DNA of 52,979 nucleotides, from sequence record PV660454; one strand, 5' to 3'. Below are positions 23,013 to 52,469 of this stretch, piece after piece (the first letter of the stretch is position 1; each line of letters starts with the position of its first letter). The notes under the pieces were generated by a model. That model was not told where the DNA came from and searched no databases. It saw nothing but the letters and a program-made list of their open reading frames with translations. Both the position numbers and the translations under genes were made by a program. The stretch comes from Escherichia phage LF82-11.

Positions 23013-23498
23013 ATGCCGCACATCATCACAGGTGAGATCAAAAAAGCCCCGTACACCAAAGACGGAAGCAACAATAACGGGCGATGGAAAATGTACATTG
23101 TCGATCTGAGTGAGCGCATGAAAGTGCGCAACCCTGACACACAGGCCGATGAAGTTGTTTACACAAACTACAAGGCAACCTTCTTTGCAAAAGAAAACGT
23201 CATGCAGTGGTACGATGAAGCGTTCCAGGTTGGCAAGGTAATCAGCGTAACGTGTGACACGCTGCAAATCACCAGCCGAGATCACAACGGCAATACGTAT
23301 CTTACGGCTGAAATGATCCGGCCTCAACTGACCTTCAGCCAGCGAGAGGCTCAGCAGCAGGGATGGGGGCAACCACAGCAGCCGCAAGGCAATCAGCAAC
23401 AAAGCCAGCACAGACCACCACAGCAGCGACCACAGCAGCGACCACAGCAGCAACAGCCACAGCAGGGAAATCAGTTTGACGATGACATTCCATTCTGA
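23013..23498 (+). CDS. ssb: single-stranded DNA-binding protein
   Basis: C-terminal Gln/Pro-rich linker ending in acidic tip DDDIPF, as in bacterial SSB. Confidence 0.7.
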   Translation: MPHIITGEIKKAPYTKDGSNNNGRWKMYIVDLSERMKVRNPDTQADEVVYTNYKATFFAKENVMQWYDEAFQVGKVISVTCDTLQITSRDHNGNTYLTAEMIRPQLTFSQREAQQQGWGQPQQPQGNQQQSQHRPPQQRPQQRPQQQQPQQGNQFDDDIPF

Positions 23499-30180: not shown

Positions 30181-30894
30181 ATGATTGACGAGAACGATAA
30201 AGACACAATGACGTTTGAAGAAATGGAGCACGGCTTGTATTCAACTCGCGCACTGGTTGCCGGGTGCCACTACCAGCCAGTGAAGCCGGAAACGTACTAT
30301 CGCGTTTCAGGGCATCGTTACGTTGGCAGCAAAACGCCTGACGTTGTGCGTGACTTGTGGGCAACCGATCGCGAATTGATTTCGTGGATGGAAGAGCGTT
30401 ACGGAAAGTATGATATCGACGCAGCGGCAAGCGCGAATAATGCCGTGTGCGAAAAGTTCTACGACGAGCAACGTAACTGCCTGAAAATCTGGTGGGGAAA
30501 GAATAAGCACATCTGGCTTAACCCTCCGTACTCACATCCTGATCCATTCGTGAAGAAGGCCATTGAGCAGATGGAGCATGACAACCAGATTGATATGCTT
30601 CTTCCTGGCGACAACTCAACGGCATGGTTTGCAGAGGCGCGCAAAAACGCTGCTGAGATCATCTGGATTGAGGCTGAGATCACAGAGATTGACCAGCAGG
30701 AATATTGCCGAACCGGGCGACTCGCTTTTATTTCCGGCCTAACCGGAAAGCCAGTTGACGGCAACAACAAAGGGAGTGTGATTTTCATCATGCGCAAACT
30801 GAAAGAGGGTGAGACGCAACAAACACACTATGTGAGCGTTTCTGAGATCTGCCCAGGCGTAAGCCGCAAGAAACCACGTAAACGGAGCGTTTAA
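30181..30894 (+). CDS. dam: DNA N6-adenine methyltransferase (phage Dam family)
   Basis: 237 aa with NPPY motif (LNPPYS), as in T1-type Dam. Confidence 0.7.
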   Translation: MIDENDKDTMTFEEMEHGLYSTRALVAGCHYQPVKPETYYRVSGHRYVGSKTPDVVRDLWATDRELISWMEERYGKYDIDAAASANNAVCEKFYDEQRNCLKIWWGKNKHIWLNPPYSHPDPFVKKAIEQMEHDNQIDMLLPGDNSTAWFAEARKNAAEIIWIEAEITEIDQQEYCRTGRLAFISGLTGKPVDGNNKGSVIFIMRKLKEGETQQTHYVSVSEICPGVSRKKPRKRSV

Positions 30895-31977: not shown

Positions 31978-33114
31978 ATGTCACTGAAGAAAATCACCGA
32001 CGAGCAGTTAAACGCCGAGCGAGAGTCGGGTAAAACTTACCGCCAGATCGCGGAAGAGTACGGAATGAACATACGCACCGTCGAGGCTCGCGGCGCACGC
32101 CTGGCTAAGAAAGGTTTCGGTCACGGTAACGGCGATGCATCGCGATTTGTTCCAGAAGGCTTCATGGTTAAGGGCACATCAACCATGCACCGCGCGAACG
32201 GAGAGGTTATCGTTAGCTGGACGAAAACCAATCAGGATCATGAGAAGTTAGCCGCCATGCTTGAGCACGCGATCGAGGCGTTTTGCGTTGAGCTTCCACG
32301 CGCAGCCGCTACACCTTCCAACGTTGGTGAGGTGATGGAGAACCAGCTCGCGCTTTATCCTGTATTCGATCTGCATATCGGTGCAATGGCTCATAAGCAT
32401 GAGTGCGGCGAGAACTACTCAACCGATATTGCCGAGAAGGTTTTGGGCGATTTCTTCAAGTACGCTGTGAACGTTGCGCCGAAGGCGAAGAAGGCGGTTG
32501 TGCTGGTTGGCGGTGACTACCTCCACTCTGACGGCCTGGACGCTGTAACACCCGCAAGCGGTCACGTTCTGGATCAGGACTCACGTTACGCTAAGCTGGT
32601 TCACGTTGCCATTCGCTCACTCCGTCGCGGCGTTGCGCTTCTGCTTGATAAGCATGAAGAGATTGAGATCCAGATTATCGAAGGCAACCACGATCAGGCG
32701 GGTATGATTTGGCTACGCGCTGCAATGGCGGCATACTTCGAAGATGAGCCGCGCGTCACGGTTGACACATCGCCTATGATCCTTCACCGTACCAAGTGGG
32801 GCAAAACGCTGTTAGGCTACACTCACGGTCACACGATGAAGAAAGCAGAAACCCGCCTCCAGGCGCTGGCTACTGACTTCCGTTCTGAGTTCGGCACGAG
32901 TGAATTCGTTTATACTCACTCAGGGCATTGGCATCACCAGACGCTTACAGAGCACACCTTAGGCATTGACGAGGTTCACGGTCAGTTAGGTGCCAAAGAT
33001 GCGTATGCGGCTCGCGGTGGATGGCGCTCATATCGCCAGGCGGCGGTAATTGTCTATGATAAAGAATTTGGCGAGGTAGGCCGATTCGTTTATCGTCCTC
33101 AGATGAGCAAATAG
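31978..33114 (+). CDS. calcineurin-like metallophosphoesterase with N-terminal HTH
   Basis: DLHIG, GGDYLHSDG and GNHD motifs; N-terminal GKTYRQIAEEYGMNIRTVEARGARL HTH-like segment. Confidence 0.55.
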   Translation: MSLKKITDEQLNAERESGKTYRQIAEEYGMNIRTVEARGARLAKKGFGHGNGDASRFVPEGFMVKGTSTMHRANGEVIVSWTKTNQDHEKLAAMLEHAIEAFCVELPRAAATPSNVGEVMENQLALYPVFDLHIGAMAHKHECGENYSTDIAEKVLGDFFKYAVNVAPKAKKAVVLVGGDYLHSDGLDAVTPASGHVLDQDSRYAKLVHVAIRSLRRGVALLLDKHEEIEIQIIEGNHDQAGMIWLRAAMAAYFEDEPRVTVDTSPMILHRTKWGKTLLGYTHGHTMKKAETRLQALATDFRSEFGTSEFVYTHSGHWHHQTLTEHTLGIDEVHGQLGAKDAYAARGGWRSYRQAAVIVYDKEFGEVGRFVYRPQMSK

Positions 33115-37363: not shown

Positions 37364-37406
37364 ATAATAACAAAACCCGCCGAAGCGGGTTTAACAAAAA
37401 GTGCTA
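37364..37406 (-). promoter_or_regulatory. box-promoter module (minus)
   Basis: TAGCACTTTTTGTTA on minus strand, 22 bp, TATTAT; box starts at stop of upstream gene. Confidence 0.5.
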
Positions 37407-38096
37407 TTTGTAACGGTTGTACTGGAAGACGGCGCGAGCGAATCCGCGCGGAGTTAGGGAGCGGAGTTGCTTAGTCTTCGCAGACTTTCCGCCGAGGAAC
37501 TTCCAGCCCCAAAAGAAATGCAAGCCTTCCTCTTTTGGTAATGGTGCCTTCTCTGGCTCGCGGAAACCGTTGCCATGCCAGATGCAAGTTTTTTTCGTGT
37601 AGCCGTCTCGCAGTGGCATTTTGGGGTGCCAGGAGCCTTCACGCGCATCGACGTATTGCCCGAAGTCACGAGGATGGAAATAGAATTTAGGCTTGCCCAG
37701 GTTTTCCGGCTTTGACATTGCCCCTACCGGGTTTTCAATCATCCACGGGATCTGGTAGCGTTCGCCAATCTCAATGACAACCTTTGCACACTCAAGCGCA
37801 TATTTCATTTCGGCGTCGTCTCTCTCGTGCTGCGCGCCAGATTGGGCAAACAGAGTGCAATCCGGGAAGCCAAAAACGATATCAGGCTTGGGCAACCCCA
37901 GGATCTCAGCCTTTGTGATGAAATCCTTATCAATCCACGTATTCACATATCGGATATTTGGGTGATTCATCTTCACGGCGTACTCGCCATGATTGCCGGA
38001 GTCAGCGTTGAAGCATATCACCTGACAACCAACCTCAGCCCAAGGCAATCCCATAATGCCGGAGCCGTCAAACAGCGACCATACAACACGCTTCAT
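37404..38096 (-). CDS. compact C5-cytosine methyltransferase-fold protein
   Basis: FDGSG (motif I-like), GFPDC (IV-like), ENP (VI-like), RSLTPRGFARA (IX/X-like); only 230 aa so little room for a target-recognition domain. Confidence 0.5.
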   Translation of the reverse strand: MKRVVWSLFDGSGIMGLPWAEVGCQVICFNADSGNHGEYAVKMNHPNIRYVNTWIDKDFITKAEILGLPKPDIVFGFPDCTLFAQSGAQHERDDAEMKYALECAKVVIEIGERYQIPWMIENPVGAMSKPENLGKPKFYFHPRDFGQYVDAREGSWHPKMPLRDGYTKKTCIWHGNGFREPEKAPLPKEEGLHFFWGWKFLGGKSAKTKQLRSLTPRGFARAVFQYNRYK

Positions 38097-38323: not shown

Positions 38324-38563
38324 TTAAAATGGAATTTCATCTTTGCAAGCTTGACATACTTTCTCAGGCGTGCATGAGCAGTTATAAGCGCAAACAGAAA
38401 CCGGATTATTGCCGATAACCTTGCTTTCTGATTGGTGATCCATTCCACCAAGAGCATCATCAAGCTCTATGCACCCATAGGCAACCATCATTGCCCACTC
38501 GTCGTTAAGCCCGGCATCCTTAGCCGCGCGGTGGCGGCTCCAGAAGTTATTGACGTTCTTCAT
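38324..38563 (-). CDS. Cys-rich small protein
   Basis: 80 aa, C-terminal C-x-n-C cluster; start moved to internal ATG 38563 (5' part of track ORF looks spurious). Confidence 0.3.
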   Translation of the reverse strand: MKNVNNFWSRHRAAKDAGLNDEWAMMVAYGCIELDDALGGMDHQSESKVIGNNPVSVCAYNCSCTPEKVCQACKDEIPF

Positions 38564-47786: not shown

Positions 47787-47954
47787 ATGTTCGAAGAAAA
47801 GAAACACAGGCCGGAACAAGCTTACTCAAGGGTATCACGCACCGTTAAAGAGCGTAGGCGCTGGGTTAAGTATTTCATGAATCAAGGCCACACCAGATCG
47901 GTTGCGATTGGCCTGGCTAAGTGGGCAACAAACAACTACAACGGGAAAAACTGA
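47787..47954 (+). CDS. small basic protein
   Basis: 55 aa, RBS AAGGGG; not in ORF track. Confidence 0.25.
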   Translation: MFEEKKHRPEQAYSRVSRTVKERRRWVKYFMNQGHTRSVAIGLAKWATNNYNGKN

Positions 47955-48586
47955 TGAACTTTCAAATGTACACTATGATCAAGCATCACTTACTTACTCA
48001 TCCAGATCAGCCAGTCTACATCTTCGACTATGACGGCACGCTTTCGGATGGCTCTCACCGACTGGACAAGTTGCCAACAAAAGATTTGCACCTCACCGAA
48101 AGCTGGGAAGAGTTCAATCGCCTTGCTTCATTCGATGAGCCGATCGAAACAACCATTCAGGTGATGAATTCACTTTATAAGGCTGGCGCTTTCGTTATCG
48201 TGTTAACCGGGCGCGCCGATAGCGTTGTTGAAGAGTCAACACAATGGCTGCATGATGCTGGGGCGAAATATACAGTGATGGTGATGCGTGGGCGTGACGA
48301 CAATCGCAAGGACACGATCATCAAGGAGGAATTCTTGCGCTACATCGGACTTGAGCGAATTACAGCGGCGTGGGATGATAGCCCAAAAGTGATCGAGCAT
48401 TTCCGATCGCTGGGCATCACAACCTACCAGGTTTGTGATTATGGCGATAAGACTCACGCGCATCTACAGTCACACGGCGTGAAAGATGCTGGCGGAGAGT
48501 GTGAGCATATTTGGGAGCGTCACAGTATTGGTGACGATTATTATGAATGCTGTGTTTCATGCGGCAGATCAAGAGGCATTAAGTAA
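47954..48586 (+). CDS. HAD-superfamily phosphatase with C-terminal Cys cluster
   Basis: IFDYDGTL (DxDGT) HAD motif I; ATGA-coupled; C-terminal C-x-n-C cluster. Confidence 0.5.
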   Translation: MNFQMYTMIKHHLLTHPDQPVYIFDYDGTLSDGSHRLDKLPTKDLHLTESWEEFNRLASFDEPIETTIQVMNSLYKAGAFVIVLTGRADSVVEESTQWLHDAGAKYTVMVMRGRDDNRKDTIIKEEFLRYIGLERITAAWDDSPKVIEHFRSLGITTYQVCDYGDKTHAHLQSHGVKDAGGECEHIWERHSIGDDYYECCVSCGRSRGIK

Positions 48587-49194
48587 TGGCAACTATCATC
48601 ATTCTGAATGCGCCGCCGCGCGCCGGGAAAGACACGATCGCGAAAATCATCGACGAGCAATACGGCTTGCCAGTTGTGAGCTTCAAAACTCCGATGTTCA
48701 ACATTGCTCGCGGCATCTTGGGCGAAGCGGATTTTAAAGAGTTCATGGCGGTTTACGAAACAGACCGCAAGGACACACAGCCGTTAAGTATTCTGCATGG
48801 CAGCACTTGCCGCGAGTTTATGATCTGGATTAGCGAATCCGTGATTAAGCCTCATTTCGGCAAGAAGCATTTCGGCTGGCTTATGGCTGATTTGCTCAGC
48901 GAAATGGAGGATGATGTTGATCTCACAATTTGCAGCGATGGCGGGTTCCCGGATGAGGTAGAGGCGTTGATTGACTTCGGGCACCGTGTCAAGCTGGTTC
49001 GTATGCACCGTGAAGGCTTCGACTTCTCGAAAGATAGCCGTGACTACATCTACCTTTCCGAAGAGTACAAGAGCAAGCCTGGTGTTGTTGAGTTCGATCT
49101 GACATTGCAGGACGGTTGCCCTAATCTGGCTGCTGAGACTATCGCGTCATTGTTCATTGCCCATCATAAACCAGATAACGAGATCCCTTGGTAA
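48586..49194 (+). CDS. P-loop (deoxy)nucleotide kinase-like protein
   Basis: N-terminal LNAPPRAGKDT Walker A resembling phage dNMP kinase P-loops. Confidence 0.45.
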   Translation: MATIIILNAPPRAGKDTIAKIIDEQYGLPVVSFKTPMFNIARGILGEADFKEFMAVYETDRKDTQPLSILHGSTCREFMIWISESVIKPHFGKKHFGWLMADLLSEMEDDVDLTICSDGGFPDEVEALIDFGHRVKLVRMHREGFDFSKDSRDYIYLSEEYKSKPGVVEFDLTLQDGCPNLAAETIASLFIAHHKPDNEIPW

Positions 49195-49195
49195 A

Positions 49196-49238
49196 TAGCA
49201 CTTTTTGTTAAACCCGCTTCGGCGGGTTTTGTTATTCT
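49196..49238 (+). promoter_or_regulatory. box-promoter module with terminator-like hairpin
   Basis: TAGCACTTTTTGTTA, CCCGC-ttcg-GCGGG plus TTTTG, TATTCT. Confidence 0.45.
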
Positions 49239-49267
49239 TGCTTTAACGAAACGAAATGGAGTGAAGA

Positions 49268-52381: not shown

Positions 52382-52469
52382 GGAAGGTTGGCAGAGTGGA
52401 CGATCGCGCACGGTTGCTAACCGTCAAGCCGGAAACGGCTCAAGGGTTCGAATCCCTTACCTTCCACCA
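52382..52469 (+). tRNA. tRNA-Ser (anticodon GCU), type II with long variable arm
   Basis: 7-bp acceptor stem GGAAGGT/ACCTTCC, TTGCTAA anticodon loop, GCCG-gaaa-CGGC variable arm, AAGGG-TTCGAAT-CCCTT T-arm, 3' ACCA; D-stem and anticodon stem each carry a mismatch. Confidence 0.6.

What the first reader, a model, noticed from the sequence alone, without database searches (positions are those of the whole stretch)
47954..49194. Adjacent HAD phosphatase and P-loop nucleotide kinase: nucleotide pool remodelling or end-healing pair
47954..48586 has the HAD motif DxDGT plus a C-terminal Cys cluster, and 48586..49194 has an N-terminal P-loop resembling phage dNMP kinases. Phosphatase plus kinase in tandem could be a split polynucleotide kinase-phosphatase (nucleic-acid end repair, for example against tRNA- or DNA-nicking defences) or a 5' nucleotidase/dNMP kinase pair. 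The order phosphatase-then-kinase as separate genes differs from the fused T4 Pnk arrangement.
Basis: partly seen in the sequence, partly recalled or inferred. Interest (0 to 1): 0.35.

Follow-up and report, generated by a model that had tools for sequence, protein, structure and literature searches.

The report
Phage 3'-phosphatase plus dNMP-kinase-like gene pair
Two back-to-back genes of a T1-like coliphage encode a stand-alone T4-Pnkp-type phosphatase and a kinase related to the T4/T5 deoxynucleotide kinases; the pair is widespread, already annotated and biochemically untested, so it is a fairly ordinary finding with one open question.

Summary
The window is the complete genome of Escherichia phage LF82-12/-40, a T1-like siphovirus. 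ORF 47954..48586 is a HAD phosphatase with a DYDGT motif and a C-terminal CxH...CxxC cluster. ORF 48586..49194 is a P-loop kinase. The two genes overlap by one base (TAATG) and a strong terminator follows.

The phosphatase is a genuine Pnkp-type HAD domain by Pfam, by its catalytic residues and by predicted fold. It has no kinase domain, so its GenBank label 'polynucleotide kinase' is a misnomer. The kinase is not of the T4 Pnk type. It falls in the same PHROG as the two characterised phage dNMP kinases (T4 gp1, T5 Dnk), and T4 gp1 is its best structural match. It lacks one key dNMP-binding arginine of T4 gp1.

The pair is conserved in at least four phage lineages. Two metagenomic proteins fuse phosphatase to kinase, and one fuses the kinase to a dUTPase.

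Most likely reading (confidence 0.5): a nucleotide-supply and DNA-end clean-up module, not a split T4-type Pnkp. A true end-healing role with a recruited kinase is not excluded (about 0.2). The pair is already annotated and was noted in a 2026 paper. No biochemistry was found.

The parts
47954..48586 (+). Stand-alone Pnkp-type HAD phosphomonoesterase (210 aa). The catalytic core covers residues about 20-162.
   Evidence: Pfam PF25109 HAD_PNKP scores 63 bits against a cut-off of 27.6, and phrog_415 gives E 2.8e-62. PDB sequence hits are T4 Pnkp and Pnkp1. The AF2 model (pLDDT 80) has Foldseek top hits 5uj0, 4xrp and 1ltq. D25, D27, R36, R87, D120, D141 and D142 are invariant in 35 homologues and align with T4 D165, D167, R176, R213, D254, D277 and D278.
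48026..48040 (+). HAD motif I, D25-Y-D27-G-T29 (nucleophile and acid/base aspartates)
   Evidence: Read directly from the translation. Invariant in alignment A2. Aligned to T4 D165-V-D167-G-T.
48500..48562 (+). C-terminal CxH...CCxxC module, a putative zinc ribbon, joined to the core by a disordered linker (residues 163-182)
   Evidence: Translation. The AF2 model shows three short strands at 187-209 with pLDDT 63-70, and the linker has pLDDT below 50. About 32 of 120 homologues carry at least part of the CxH/CxxC signature, 30 of them with both motifs in one or two copies; 88 of 120 have neither. No Pfam match.
48571..48588 (+). Translational-coupling junction: Shine-Dalgarno AAGAGG (48571-48576), then stop/start overlap TAATG (48584-48588)
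   Evidence: Sequence read.
48586..49194 (+). P-loop kinase of the T4 gp1 / T5 Dnk (dNMP-kinase) PHROG, in a distinct 'LNxPxGxGKDT ... D(G/S)GFxxE ... DSRxY' subfamily (202 aa)
   Evidence: phrog_139 gives E 2.7e-42, and T4 gp1 and T5 Dnk hit the same span of that profile. The AF2 model has pLDDT 92.7. Its best TM-score in the PDB is 1DEK at 0.66. BFVD neighbours are annotated dNMP or phosphomevalonate kinases.
48607..48636 (+). Walker A / P-loop, N8-A-P-P-R-A-G-K-D-T17 (GKDT as in T4 gp1 and T5 Dnk)
49171..49191 (+). Disordered C-terminal tail ending P-D-N-E-I-P-W, which resembles the SSB C-terminal tip
   Evidence: 67 of 120 homologues end in [IL]PW, mostly DDIPW. pLDDT is 53-66 over this stretch. 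The phage SSB ends in DDDIPF.
49210..49239 (+). Intrinsic-terminator-like hairpin (AAACCCGC-TTCG-GCGGGTTT plus a T-rich tail) that closes the transcription unit just after the kinase
31978..33114 (+). Calcineurin-like metallophosphoesterase ('DNA repair exonuclease', phrog_704). In other phages it sits immediately upstream of the phosphatase-kinase pair; here it is detached.
   Evidence: phrog_704 gives E 4.8e-149. The order MPE-HAD-kinase is seen in K1ind2, LAh3 and vB_YenM_534. The KanT1 paper reports it for Drexlerviridae.

Best explanation
This is a translationally coupled two-gene module at the end of an early transcription unit.

Gene 1 is a stand-alone phosphomonoesterase of the T4-Pnkp HAD type, with no kinase domain. 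In this clade it carries an accessory zinc-ribbon-like tail. Gene 2 is a P-loop kinase from the same remote-homology family as the T4 gp1 and T5 Dnk deoxynucleoside-monophosphate kinases.

Most likely mechanism (inferred, not shown): while host DNA is broken down and phage DNA is replicated by the host polymerase, the kinase converts 5'-dNMPs to dNDPs, which host Ndk then takes to dNTPs. The phosphatase removes 3'-phosphates from DNA ends, oligonucleotides or 3'-nucleotides. That would let nucleases, polymerase and ligase act, and let the products enter the 5'-nucleotide pool. The phosphatase is unlikely to attack 5'-dNMPs, because it is coupled to the kinase and in some relatives fused to it.

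Shown here: the family and fold assignments, conservation of the catalytic residues, the coupling, the synteny and the fusions. Inferred: the substrates and the biological role.
For: Phosphatase identity: Pfam HAD_PNKP scores above its cut-off, all T4 Pnkp phosphatase catalytic residues are invariant, and the Foldseek top hits are T4 Pnkp phosphatase and Pnkp1.

Kinase identity: it shares phrog_139 with T4 gp1 and T5 Dnk. 1DEK gives the best TM-score, 0.66, against 0.53 or less for the other top-50 PDB hits (adenylate, gluconate and shikimate kinases), and T4 Pnkp is absent from that top 50. Collinear motifs match, and counterparts exist for 1DEK R132, R68, M135, W152, D175 and E181. There is no AAA_33 (Pnk-type) signal.

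Nucleotide-metabolism context of the kinase family where the phosphatase is absent: a fusion to dUTPase inside a module of ThyX, primase-helicase, PolA and ligase; adjacency to dUTPase and DNA ligase in phage Navette; proximity to ThyX and RNR in PVP-SE1; and proximity to DNA polymerase and exonuclease in PM75.

Functional linkage of the two genes: 63 of 80 kinase loci have the phosphatase upstream and 79 of 80 phosphatase loci have the kinase downstream. They are adjacent, with overlapping or nearly abutting stop and start codons, in Kagunavirus, Ahphunavirus and a PY100-like phage. P0261 and P0267 are HAD_PNKP-kinase fusions.

A metallophosphoesterase nuclease often precedes the pair. In Ahphunavirus it follows the exonuclease and endonuclease genes.

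No ligase or polymerase is annotated in this genome. An independent paper proposes 'enhancing nucleotide supply' for the same pair (PMC13164509).
Against: No member of this kinase subfamily or of the T1-like phosphatase group has been assayed, as far as the searchable literature shows.

The kinase scores below the Pfam DNMK threshold (12.2 versus 27.1). Profile matches to T4 gp1 and T5 Dnk cover only the N-terminal 36-47 columns by hhalign.

The arginine that binds the dNMP phosphate and base in T4 gp1 (R177, also present in T5 Dnk) is an invariant glycine here (G120; 258 of 267 family members have D-x-G-F). K37 has no direct counterpart. The acceptor substrate could therefore differ from a dNMP.

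Pairing a Pnkp-type phosphatase with a P-loop kinase, including as a fusion, is the hallmark architecture of end-healing enzymes. The zinc-ribbon tail hints at polynucleotide rather than mononucleotide substrates for the phosphatase.
Confidence: 0.5

Rival explanations
1. A true two-subunit (sometimes fused) end-healing enzyme. The HAD protein removes 3'-phosphate or 2',3'-cyclic phosphate, and the dNMP-kinase-like protein has been recruited as the 5'-OH polynucleotide kinase. The healed DNA nicks or RNA breaks are then sealed by host LigA or another ligase, for example to counter defence nucleases that leave 3'-P/5'-OH ends.
For: The phosphatase's closest characterised relatives are polynucleotide 3'-phosphatases. 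The phosphatase-kinase fusions P0261 and P0267 mirror Pnkp architecture. The kinase lacks the dNMP-binding R177 of T4 gp1. The zinc-ribbon-like tail on the phosphatase could bind nucleic acid. The pair is often adjacent to a metallophosphoesterase labelled 'DNA repair exonuclease'.
Against: The kinase fold and family are dNMP-kinase-like. There is no AAA_33 signal, and no T4 Pnkp hit among the top 50 Foldseek matches. The Gly-for-Arg change also occurs in family members that are not linked to the phosphatase but are linked or fused to dUTPase. No RNA or DNA ligase is annotated in the genome. No invariant acidic residue follows strand 2, where hydroxyl-phosphorylating P-loop kinases usually carry their catalytic base; the motif there is SFKxPMF (inference from my own knowledge).
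Confidence: 0.2
2. A T5-like Dmp/Dnk pair: a 5'-deoxynucleotidase plus a dNMP kinase, both acting on free 5'-dNMPs to reshape the pool. For example, selected or non-canonical dNMPs would be dephosphorylated while the others are phosphorylated.
For: T5 Dmp, annotated as a deoxynucleoside-5'-monophosphatase, matches phrog_415 over its full length (E 3.6e-57), the same PHROG as this phosphatase. It keeps the same catalytic core: DxDGT, HR, TxR, KD and DD. T5 also encodes Dnk in phrog_139.
Against: The T1-like phosphatase HMM scores T5 Dmp at only 13.3 bits, against 41.4 for T2 Pnkp. Direct BLASTP gives E 0.026 over 17 residues. In T5 the two genes are far apart and in different temporal classes, whereas here they are translationally coupled and in relatives fused. 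With opposing activities on one substrate, that would be an ATP-wasting futile cycle (inference).
Confidence: 0.15
3. The pair acts on some other phosphorylated small molecule, such as an immune signalling nucleotide, a cofactor precursor or a modified nucleotide. It would then be a counter-defence or auxiliary metabolic module.
For: The substrate-defining residues differ from the characterised relatives: R177 becomes Gly in the kinase, and the phosphatase has a highly conserved insert LPTKDLHLTESWxEFN between HAD motifs I and II. BFVD neighbours include proteins annotated as phosphomevalonate or dephospho-CoA kinase.
Against: No positive evidence was found. No defence-related or pathway-specific partner gene is conserved next to the pair. 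The variable small ORFs between the two genes differ from locus to locus.
Confidence: 0.1

Closest known systems
Bacteriophage T4 polynucleotide kinase-phosphatase (Pnkp/PseT; PDB 1LTQ, 5UJ0)
   Same: The phosphatase shares the HAD_PNKP domain and all catalytic residues, namely DxDGT, R176, R213, D254 and D277/D278 or their equivalents. It is also the top structural match.
   Different: The phosphatase is a separate protein with no kinase domain. The neighbouring kinase is not of the Pnk (AAA_33) type. The order is phosphatase then kinase. No partner RNA ligase is present. A conserved insert of about 14 residues lies between motifs I and II, and there is an optional zinc-ribbon tail.
Bacteriophage T4 gp1 and T5 Dnk deoxynucleoside monophosphate kinases (PDB 1DEK/1DEL; T5.043)
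   Same: They share phrog_139, the GKDT P-loop and collinear motifs. 1DEK gives the best TM-score (0.66). Counterparts exist for 1DEK R132, R68, M135, W152, D175 and E181.
   Different: Identity is only about 16%, and the Pfam DNMK score is below threshold. The protein is shorter (202 versus 241-250 aa). R177 is replaced by an invariant Gly within a D(G/S)GFxxE motif, K37 is not conserved, and an SSB-like C-terminal tail is present.
Bacteriophage T5 Dmp (deoxynucleoside-5'-monophosphatase, T5.001)
   Same: It shares phrog_415 with the phosphatase and has the same HAD catalytic core. T5 likewise has a phrog_139 kinase.
   Different: It is a very distant relative (13 bits with the T1-like HMM). 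The T5 genes are not adjacent and are expressed at different times.
Capnocytophaga gingivalis Pnkp1 of the Pnkp1-Rnl-Hen1 RNA repair complex (PDB 4XRP/4XRU)
   Same: It is the best PDB sequence match for the phosphatase profile (E 2.2e-15) and a top fold match.
   Different: Pnkp1 is a fused kinase-phosphatase that works with a ligase and Hen1. None of those partners is present here.
Stand-alone eukaryotic DNA 3'-phosphatases of the PNKP HAD family: yeast Tpp1 and plant ZDP, which has zinc fingers (own knowledge, not tested here)
   Same: The concept is the same: a Pnkp-type phosphatase without a kinase domain. In ZDP it is combined with zinc fingers and acts on 3'-phosphate DNA ends.
   Different: The zinc modules are unrelated in position and type. 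No sequence comparison was run here.

Membership tests
Pnkp-type HAD phosphatase (Pfam PF25109 HAD_PNKP) | Profile score above the curated gathering threshold | tested here: met
   63 bits against a cut-off of 27.6, covering residues 21-161 and profile positions 3-139 of 143.
Pnkp-type HAD phosphatase (Pfam PF25109 HAD_PNKP) | Catalytic residues of the T4 Pnkp phosphatase: D165, D167, R176, R213, D254, D277 and D278 (list of essential residues from my own knowledge of the mutational literature) | tested here: met
   D25, D27, R36, R87, D120, D141 and D142 align to them. All are invariant in 35 homologues.
Pnkp-type HAD phosphatase (Pfam PF25109 HAD_PNKP) | Fold closest to solved Pnkp phosphatase domains | tested here: met
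   Foldseek ranks 1-17 are 5uj0, 4xrp/4xru, 1ltq, 2ia5, 1rpz and 1rc8. TM-score normalised to 5uj0 is 0.76-0.78.
Pnkp-type HAD phosphatase (Pfam PF25109 HAD_PNKP) | 3'-phosphatase activity on polynucleotide ends | not testable with these tools
   This needs an enzyme assay. The same PHROG also contains T5 Dmp, which acts on 5'-dNMPs, so specificity cannot be read from family membership.
Bifunctional T4-type Pnkp (end-healing enzyme) | Pnk-type P-loop kinase domain (Pfam AAA_33), either in the same protein or in the partner | tested here: not met
   T2 Pnkp residues 5-147 score 84 bits against AAA_33. ORF1 has no kinase domain. ORF2 gives no AAA_33 hit at E <= 1, and hhalign against T2 Pnkp aligns only 24 P-loop columns.
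Bifunctional T4-type Pnkp (end-healing enzyme) | Partner ligase encoded by the same genome | tested here: not met
   No ligase appears among the annotated CDSs at 1-50000. No ORF longer than 150 aa lies in 50-53 kb. This check is at annotation level only.
Bifunctional T4-type Pnkp (end-healing enzyme) | 5'-OH polynucleotide kinase activity | not testable with these tools
   This needs an enzyme assay.
Phage dNMP kinase (T4 gp1 / T5 Dnk; PHROG 139, Pfam PF21448 DNMK) | Same remote-homology family as the characterised enzymes | tested here: met
   Against phrog_139 the window kinase gives E 2.7e-42 (profile 82-258), T4 gp1 gives 1.8e-65 (83-261) and T5 Dnk gives 1.4e-51 (82-266).
Phage dNMP kinase (T4 gp1 / T5 Dnk; PHROG 139, Pfam PF21448 DNMK) | Pfam DNMK score above the gathering threshold | tested here: not met
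   12.2 bits against 27.1, from the P-loop only. For comparison, T5 Dnk scores 43.4 and T4 gp1 scores 357.9.
Phage dNMP kinase (T4 gp1 / T5 Dnk; PHROG 139, Pfam PF21448 DNMK) | Fold closest to 1DEK | tested here: met
   The model has pLDDT 92.7. 1DEK gives TMq 0.66, TMt 0.57 and rmsd 4.2, the highest TM-score among the PDB hits listed.
Phage dNMP kinase (T4 gp1 / T5 Dnk; PHROG 139, Pfam PF21448 DNMK) | dNMP-phosphate ligands of 1DEK: K37, R68, R132 and R177 (Table 2 of PMC10653934) | tested here: inconclusive
   R132 maps to R76 (49 of 49 sequences). R68 maps to an Arg in 41 of 49. K37 maps to F38, though an invariant K34 lies nearby. R177 maps to G120 (Gly in 48 of 49).
Phage dNMP kinase (T4 gp1 / T5 Dnk; PHROG 139, Pfam PF21448 DNMK) | ATP-dependent phosphorylation of dNMPs | not testable with these tools
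   This needs an enzyme assay.
T5 Dmp-type 5'-deoxynucleotidase | Close sequence relationship to T5 Dmp | tested here: not met
   Both fall in phrog_415. However, the T1-like HMM gives T5 Dmp 13.3 bits against 41.4 for T2 Pnkp, BLASTP gives E 0.026, and hhalign probability is 57.6%.

The most novel reading that the evidence does not exclude
The phosphatase and the dNMP-kinase-like protein together form a previously unrecognised class of nucleic-acid end-healing enzyme, split in most phages and fused in some. In it, the 5'-kinase module was recruited from the dNMP-kinase family instead of the Pnk family. Ligase-less phages would use it to repair 3'-P/5'-OH breaks made by host defence nucleases, with the SSB-like tail bringing the kinase to ssDNA and replication sites.
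Probability: 0.2. Interest if true: 0.6.

Novelty: new member of a known kind. Interest (0 to 1): 0.3.

Why it matters
If the likely reading holds, these are the only nucleotide-metabolism enzymes annotated in a phage that has no annotated DNA polymerase, ribonucleotide reductase or thymidylate synthase of its own. They would then help explain how T1-like phages turn host DNA into precursors so efficiently.

There is also a practical point. The widespread database label 'polynucleotide kinase' for phrog_415 proteins is misleading, because these proteins have no kinase domain and the family also contains a 5'-nucleotidase.

If the minority reading holds, the pair would be a new architecture of end-healing enzyme and a candidate counter-defence system present in more than a thousand sequenced phages. 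One cheap pair of enzyme assays would decide between the readings.

Tried and rejected
Sequence searches of the kinase against the PDB, with the single sequence and with a 30-sequence profile, returned only P-loop matches to AAA+ ATPases and adenylate kinases. They never found 1DEK.

hhalign of the family profile against single T4 gp1, T5 Dnk and T2 Pnkp sequences aligned only 24-47 N-terminal columns. On its own it could not discriminate between them. A broader home-made HMM gave a weak ranking: T5 Dnk 21 bits, T4 gp1 17 bits, Pnkp 13 bits.

I tested whether the Arg-to-Gly change in the kinase tracks association with the phosphatase. It does not; it is found across the whole subfamily.

I tested whether the IPW tail tracks presence of the phosphatase. 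Only 2 of 80 IMG/VR loci carry the tail, so nothing could be concluded.

The genes lying between phosphatase and kinase in other phages are unrelated small ORFs and an HNH-like protein, not a conserved third component.

Literature searches for biochemical or anti-defence work on this pair found only genome-description papers. One paper search failed on a syntax error.

Pfam found nothing for the zinc-ribbon tail, for the flanking small ORFs or for T5 Dmp.

A complex prediction of the two proteins was not possible with the tools.
Full report
**What the window is.** Megablast shows the window is identical over the 5-kb query and equal in length (52,979 bp) to the complete genomes of Escherichia phages LF82-12 and LF82-40 (PV660455.1 and PV660462.1). 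These are T1-like siphoviruses isolated on E. coli LF82. The annotated genome has a terminase, structural genes, RecE-like exonuclease, Erf, SSB, primase, helicase and two DNA methyltransferases. It has no DNA polymerase, ligase, ribonucleotide reductase or thymidylate synthase. The two ORFs of the finding are annotated there as 'polynucleotide kinase' (47954..48586) and 'deoxynucleoside monophosphate kinase' (48586..49194).

**Observation.**
- ORF1 has the HAD motif F-D25-Y-D27-G-T29 and a C-terminal cluster C183-x-H185...C199-C200-x-x-C203.
- ORF2 has the P-loop N-A-P-P-R-A-G-K-D-T at residues 8-17.
- The upstream ORF, ORF1 and ORF2 are joined by one-base stop/start overlaps: TGATG at 47952-47956 and TAATG at 48584-48588.
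- A Shine-Dalgarno AAGAGG lies 10 nt before the kinase ATG.
- A strong hairpin plus T-tract at 49210-49239 ends the transcription unit.

**The phosphatase.** ORF1 passes the Pfam HAD_PNKP threshold (63 versus 27.6 bits) and matches phrog_415 at E 2.8e-62. By sequence it finds only Pnkp phosphatase domains in the PDB: T4 5uj0 and 1ltq, and Capnocytophaga Pnkp1 4xrp. With a 35-sequence profile the E-values reach 2e-15. hhalign against T2 Pnkp gives 97.4% probability over 131 columns.

The alignments place D25, D27, R36, R87, D120, D141 and D142 on T4 D165, D167, R176, R213, D254, D277 and D278. All seven are invariant in 35 homologues. The AlphaFold model has pLDDT 80 overall and above 90 in the core. 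Its top 17 Foldseek PDB hits are all T4 Pnkp or Pnkp1.

Three features differ from T4:
- There is no kinase domain at all.
- A strongly conserved insert, LPTKDLHLTESWxEFN, lies between motifs I and II.
- After a disordered linker comes the CxH...CxxC module, predicted as three short strands. About 32 of 120 homologues carry at least part of this signature, 30 of them with both motifs, and some carry it twice.

**A caveat on specificity.** T5 Dmp is annotated as a deoxynucleoside-5'-monophosphatase. It matches phrog_415 over its full length (E 3.6e-57) and keeps the same catalytic core. The catalytic residues therefore do not say whether the substrate is a 3'-phosphate end or a 5'-nucleotide. 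Even so, the T1-like family HMM scores T2 Pnkp at 41.4 bits and T5 Dmp at only 13.3 bits. Direct BLASTP against Dmp aligns 17 residues. ORF1 is thus much closer to Pnkp.

**The kinase.** Pfam gives only sub-threshold P-loop hits: AAA_17, CPT, and DNMK at 12.2 versus 27.1 bits. PDB sequence searches give nothing useful.

ORF2 does match phrog_139 at E 2.7e-42. The two biochemically characterised phage dNMP kinases, T4 gp1 and T5 Dnk, match the same span of that profile at 1.8e-65 and 1.4e-51.

The AlphaFold model is confident (pLDDT 92.7). Among PDB structures, 1DEK (T4 dNMP kinase) has the highest TM-score at 0.66. The other top-50 hits, including adenylate, gluconate and shikimate kinases, reach 0.53 or less. 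T4 Pnkp does not appear in the top 50. Viral structural neighbours are mostly annotated as dNMP kinases. By contrast, the kinase domain of T2 Pnkp is a clear Pfam AAA_33 domain (84 bits). ORF2 has no AAA_33 signal.

I mapped the 1DEK ligand residues tabulated in PMC10653934 through an L-INS-i alignment.
- Conserved: the GKDT P-loop, R132 (R76, 49 of 49 sequences), R68 (Arg in 41 of 49), M135 (M79), W152 (F96), D175 (D118) and E181 (E124).
- Not conserved: R177, which binds the dNMP phosphate and base, is an invariant Gly. The motif D(G/S)GFxxE occurs in 258 of 267 family members. K37 has no direct counterpart, although an invariant K34 lies nearby.

ORF2 therefore belongs to a large, uncharacterised subfamily of the dNMP-kinase-like fold. 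That subfamily has 3,692 clusters at 50% identity with E <= 1e-3. Its acceptor site is not identical to that of T4 gp1.

**Linkage of the two genes.**
- In IMG/VR, 63 of 80 kinase loci have the phosphatase upstream on the same strand, 6 to 2,141 bp away. Conversely, 79 of 80 phosphatase loci have the kinase downstream, and about half are directly adjacent.
- The intervening DNA holds unrelated small ORFs and an HNH-like gene, so these look like insertions.
- Most of those loci are Drexlerviridae and are not independent of one another. However, the same adjacent, overlapping or nearly abutting pair occurs in Kagunavirus K1ind2 (Guernseyvirinae), Ahphunavirus LAh3 (Autographiviridae) and the PY100-like phage vB_YenM_534.
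- In each of these three phages the pair follows a calcineurin-like metallophosphoesterase, phrog_704 ('DNA repair exonuclease') or phrog_221. In this window the phrog_704 gene is detached, at 31978..33114.
- Two metagenomic proteins, P0261 (403 aa) and P0267 (461 aa, confirmed on its contig), are fusions of HAD_PNKP at the N-terminus and this kinase at the C-terminus. Both carry the family signatures.

**Context of the kinase without the phosphatase.**
- P0373 fuses the kinase to a dUTPase. It sits in a module of ThyX, primase-helicase, PolA, 5'-3' exonuclease and ligase.
- In Erwinia phage Navette the kinase lies between DNA ligase and dUTPase.
- In PVP-SE1 it lies near ThyX and RNR.
- In PM75 it follows DNA polymerase and a phrog_221 metallophosphoesterase.

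These are deoxynucleotide and replication contexts.

**Interpretation.** The kinase's family, fold and contexts favour deoxynucleotide phosphorylation. The phosphatase's family and fold favour removal of 3'-phosphates. Coupling or fusing a 5'-dNMPase to a dNMP kinase would create a futile cycle. That argues against the pure T5-Dmp-like reading and for a 3'-specific phosphatase.

I therefore favour, at confidence 0.5, a module for nucleotide supply and DNA-end clean-up. It would serve host-DNA recycling and replication in a phage that brings no other nucleotide-metabolism genes. The only paper found that comments on the pair proposes the same thing (PMC13164509).

The end-healing reading keeps about 0.2. 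The reasons are that the phosphatase-plus-kinase architecture is the hallmark of Pnkp enzymes, that the kinase lacks R177, and that the phosphatase carries a possible nucleic-acid-binding zinc ribbon. Against it stand the absence of a ligase, the kinase's non-Pnk family, and the presence of the Gly variant in dUTPase-linked members. The T5 Dmp/Dnk-like reading gets about 0.15 and an unrelated small-molecule substrate about 0.1.

**Novelty.** Both genes are already annotated in GenBank, their pairing in Drexlerviridae has been noted in print, and each belongs to a known family. This analysis adds five things:
- the annotation 'polynucleotide kinase' is wrong for ORF1;
- the partner kinase is not Pnk-type;
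- natural phosphatase-kinase and kinase-dUTPase fusions exist;
- the kinase subfamily has lost a key dNMP-binding arginine;
- T5 Dmp shares the phosphatase's PHROG.

I rate it a new member of a known kind, of modest interest. It has a cheap and decisive biochemical test.

Noticed in passing
window 49171..49191 (kinase C-terminus), 23013..23498 (SSB), 38324..38563 (- strand): Exactly three ORFs of 40 aa or more in the genome end in acidic-I-P-aromatic: the kinase (..PDNEIPW), the phage SSB (..FDDDIPF, the canonical SSB-Ct tip) and a 79-aa Cys-rich hypothetical protein (..CQACKDEIPF). 67 of 120 kinase homologues end in [IL]PW, mostly DDIPW, and the tail is predicted to be disordered. This looks like mimicry of the SSB C-terminal tip, which could dock these proteins onto SSB-Ct-binding replication or repair proteins. 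No precedent was found in one literature search.
   Followed up: partly
window 52382..52469 (+): A tRNA-Ser gene (anticodon GCT) predicted by ARAGORN. It is the only tRNA in the genome.
   Followed up: no
PHROG phrog_415; T5 locus L082:124..858 (-): phrog_415 is labelled 'polynucleotide kinase'. Its members examined here are phosphatase-only proteins, and T5 Dmp, a 5'-deoxynucleotidase, matches it over its full length (E 3.6e-57). T5 Dmp itself has no Pfam match at E <= 1. The label propagates into many GenBank phage records.
   Followed up: yes
L085:498..1883 (P0267), P0261, L086:8001..9122 (P0373): These are natural domain fusions. P0267 and P0261 have HAD_PNKP at the N-terminus and the dNMP-kinase-like domain at the C-terminus. 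P0373 has the kinase at the N-terminus and a dUTPase at the C-terminus, inside a replication module.
   Followed up: yes
window 31978..33114 (+); L083:1389..2519; L084:1482..2456; L090:2293..3483; L089:3019..4008: A calcineurin-like metallophosphoesterase (phrog_704 'DNA repair exonuclease' or phrog_221) sits immediately upstream of the phosphatase-kinase pair, or of the kinase alone, in several unrelated phage lineages. In this window it is about 15 kb away. A weak Pfam Sigma70_r4_2 hit and another phage's wHTH annotation hint at an N-terminal wHTH-like region.
   Followed up: partly
alignment A2 (homologues of window 47954..48586): The C-terminal CxH...CxxC module of the phosphatase is accessory and modular. 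It is absent from most homologues (for example Rtp), present once in this phage, and duplicated in P0124, P0126, P0161 and P0177. Some relatives (P0233, P0240) carry an unrelated C-terminal extension instead.
   Followed up: partly
BFVD hit A0A7S6HV70 (Escherichia phage JEP1, 518 aa): A kinase homologue annotated as 'DOD-type homing endonuclease domain-containing protein'. It is more than twice the usual length, which suggests an intein or homing-endonuclease insertion in the kinase gene.
   Followed up: no
L091:3689..4582 (Escherichia phage EcP-vB); P0248, P0283, P0285, P0298: Some kinase homologues carry an N-terminal extension of about 40-100 residues. In EcP-vB that extension matches phrog_26149, which is also labelled dNMP kinase. 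Others (P0266, P0271) carry low-complexity C-terminal extensions of about 120 residues.
   Followed up: no
window 30181..30894 (+) and 37404..38096 (-): Two separate DNA methyltransferase genes are annotated in this small genome.
   Followed up: no
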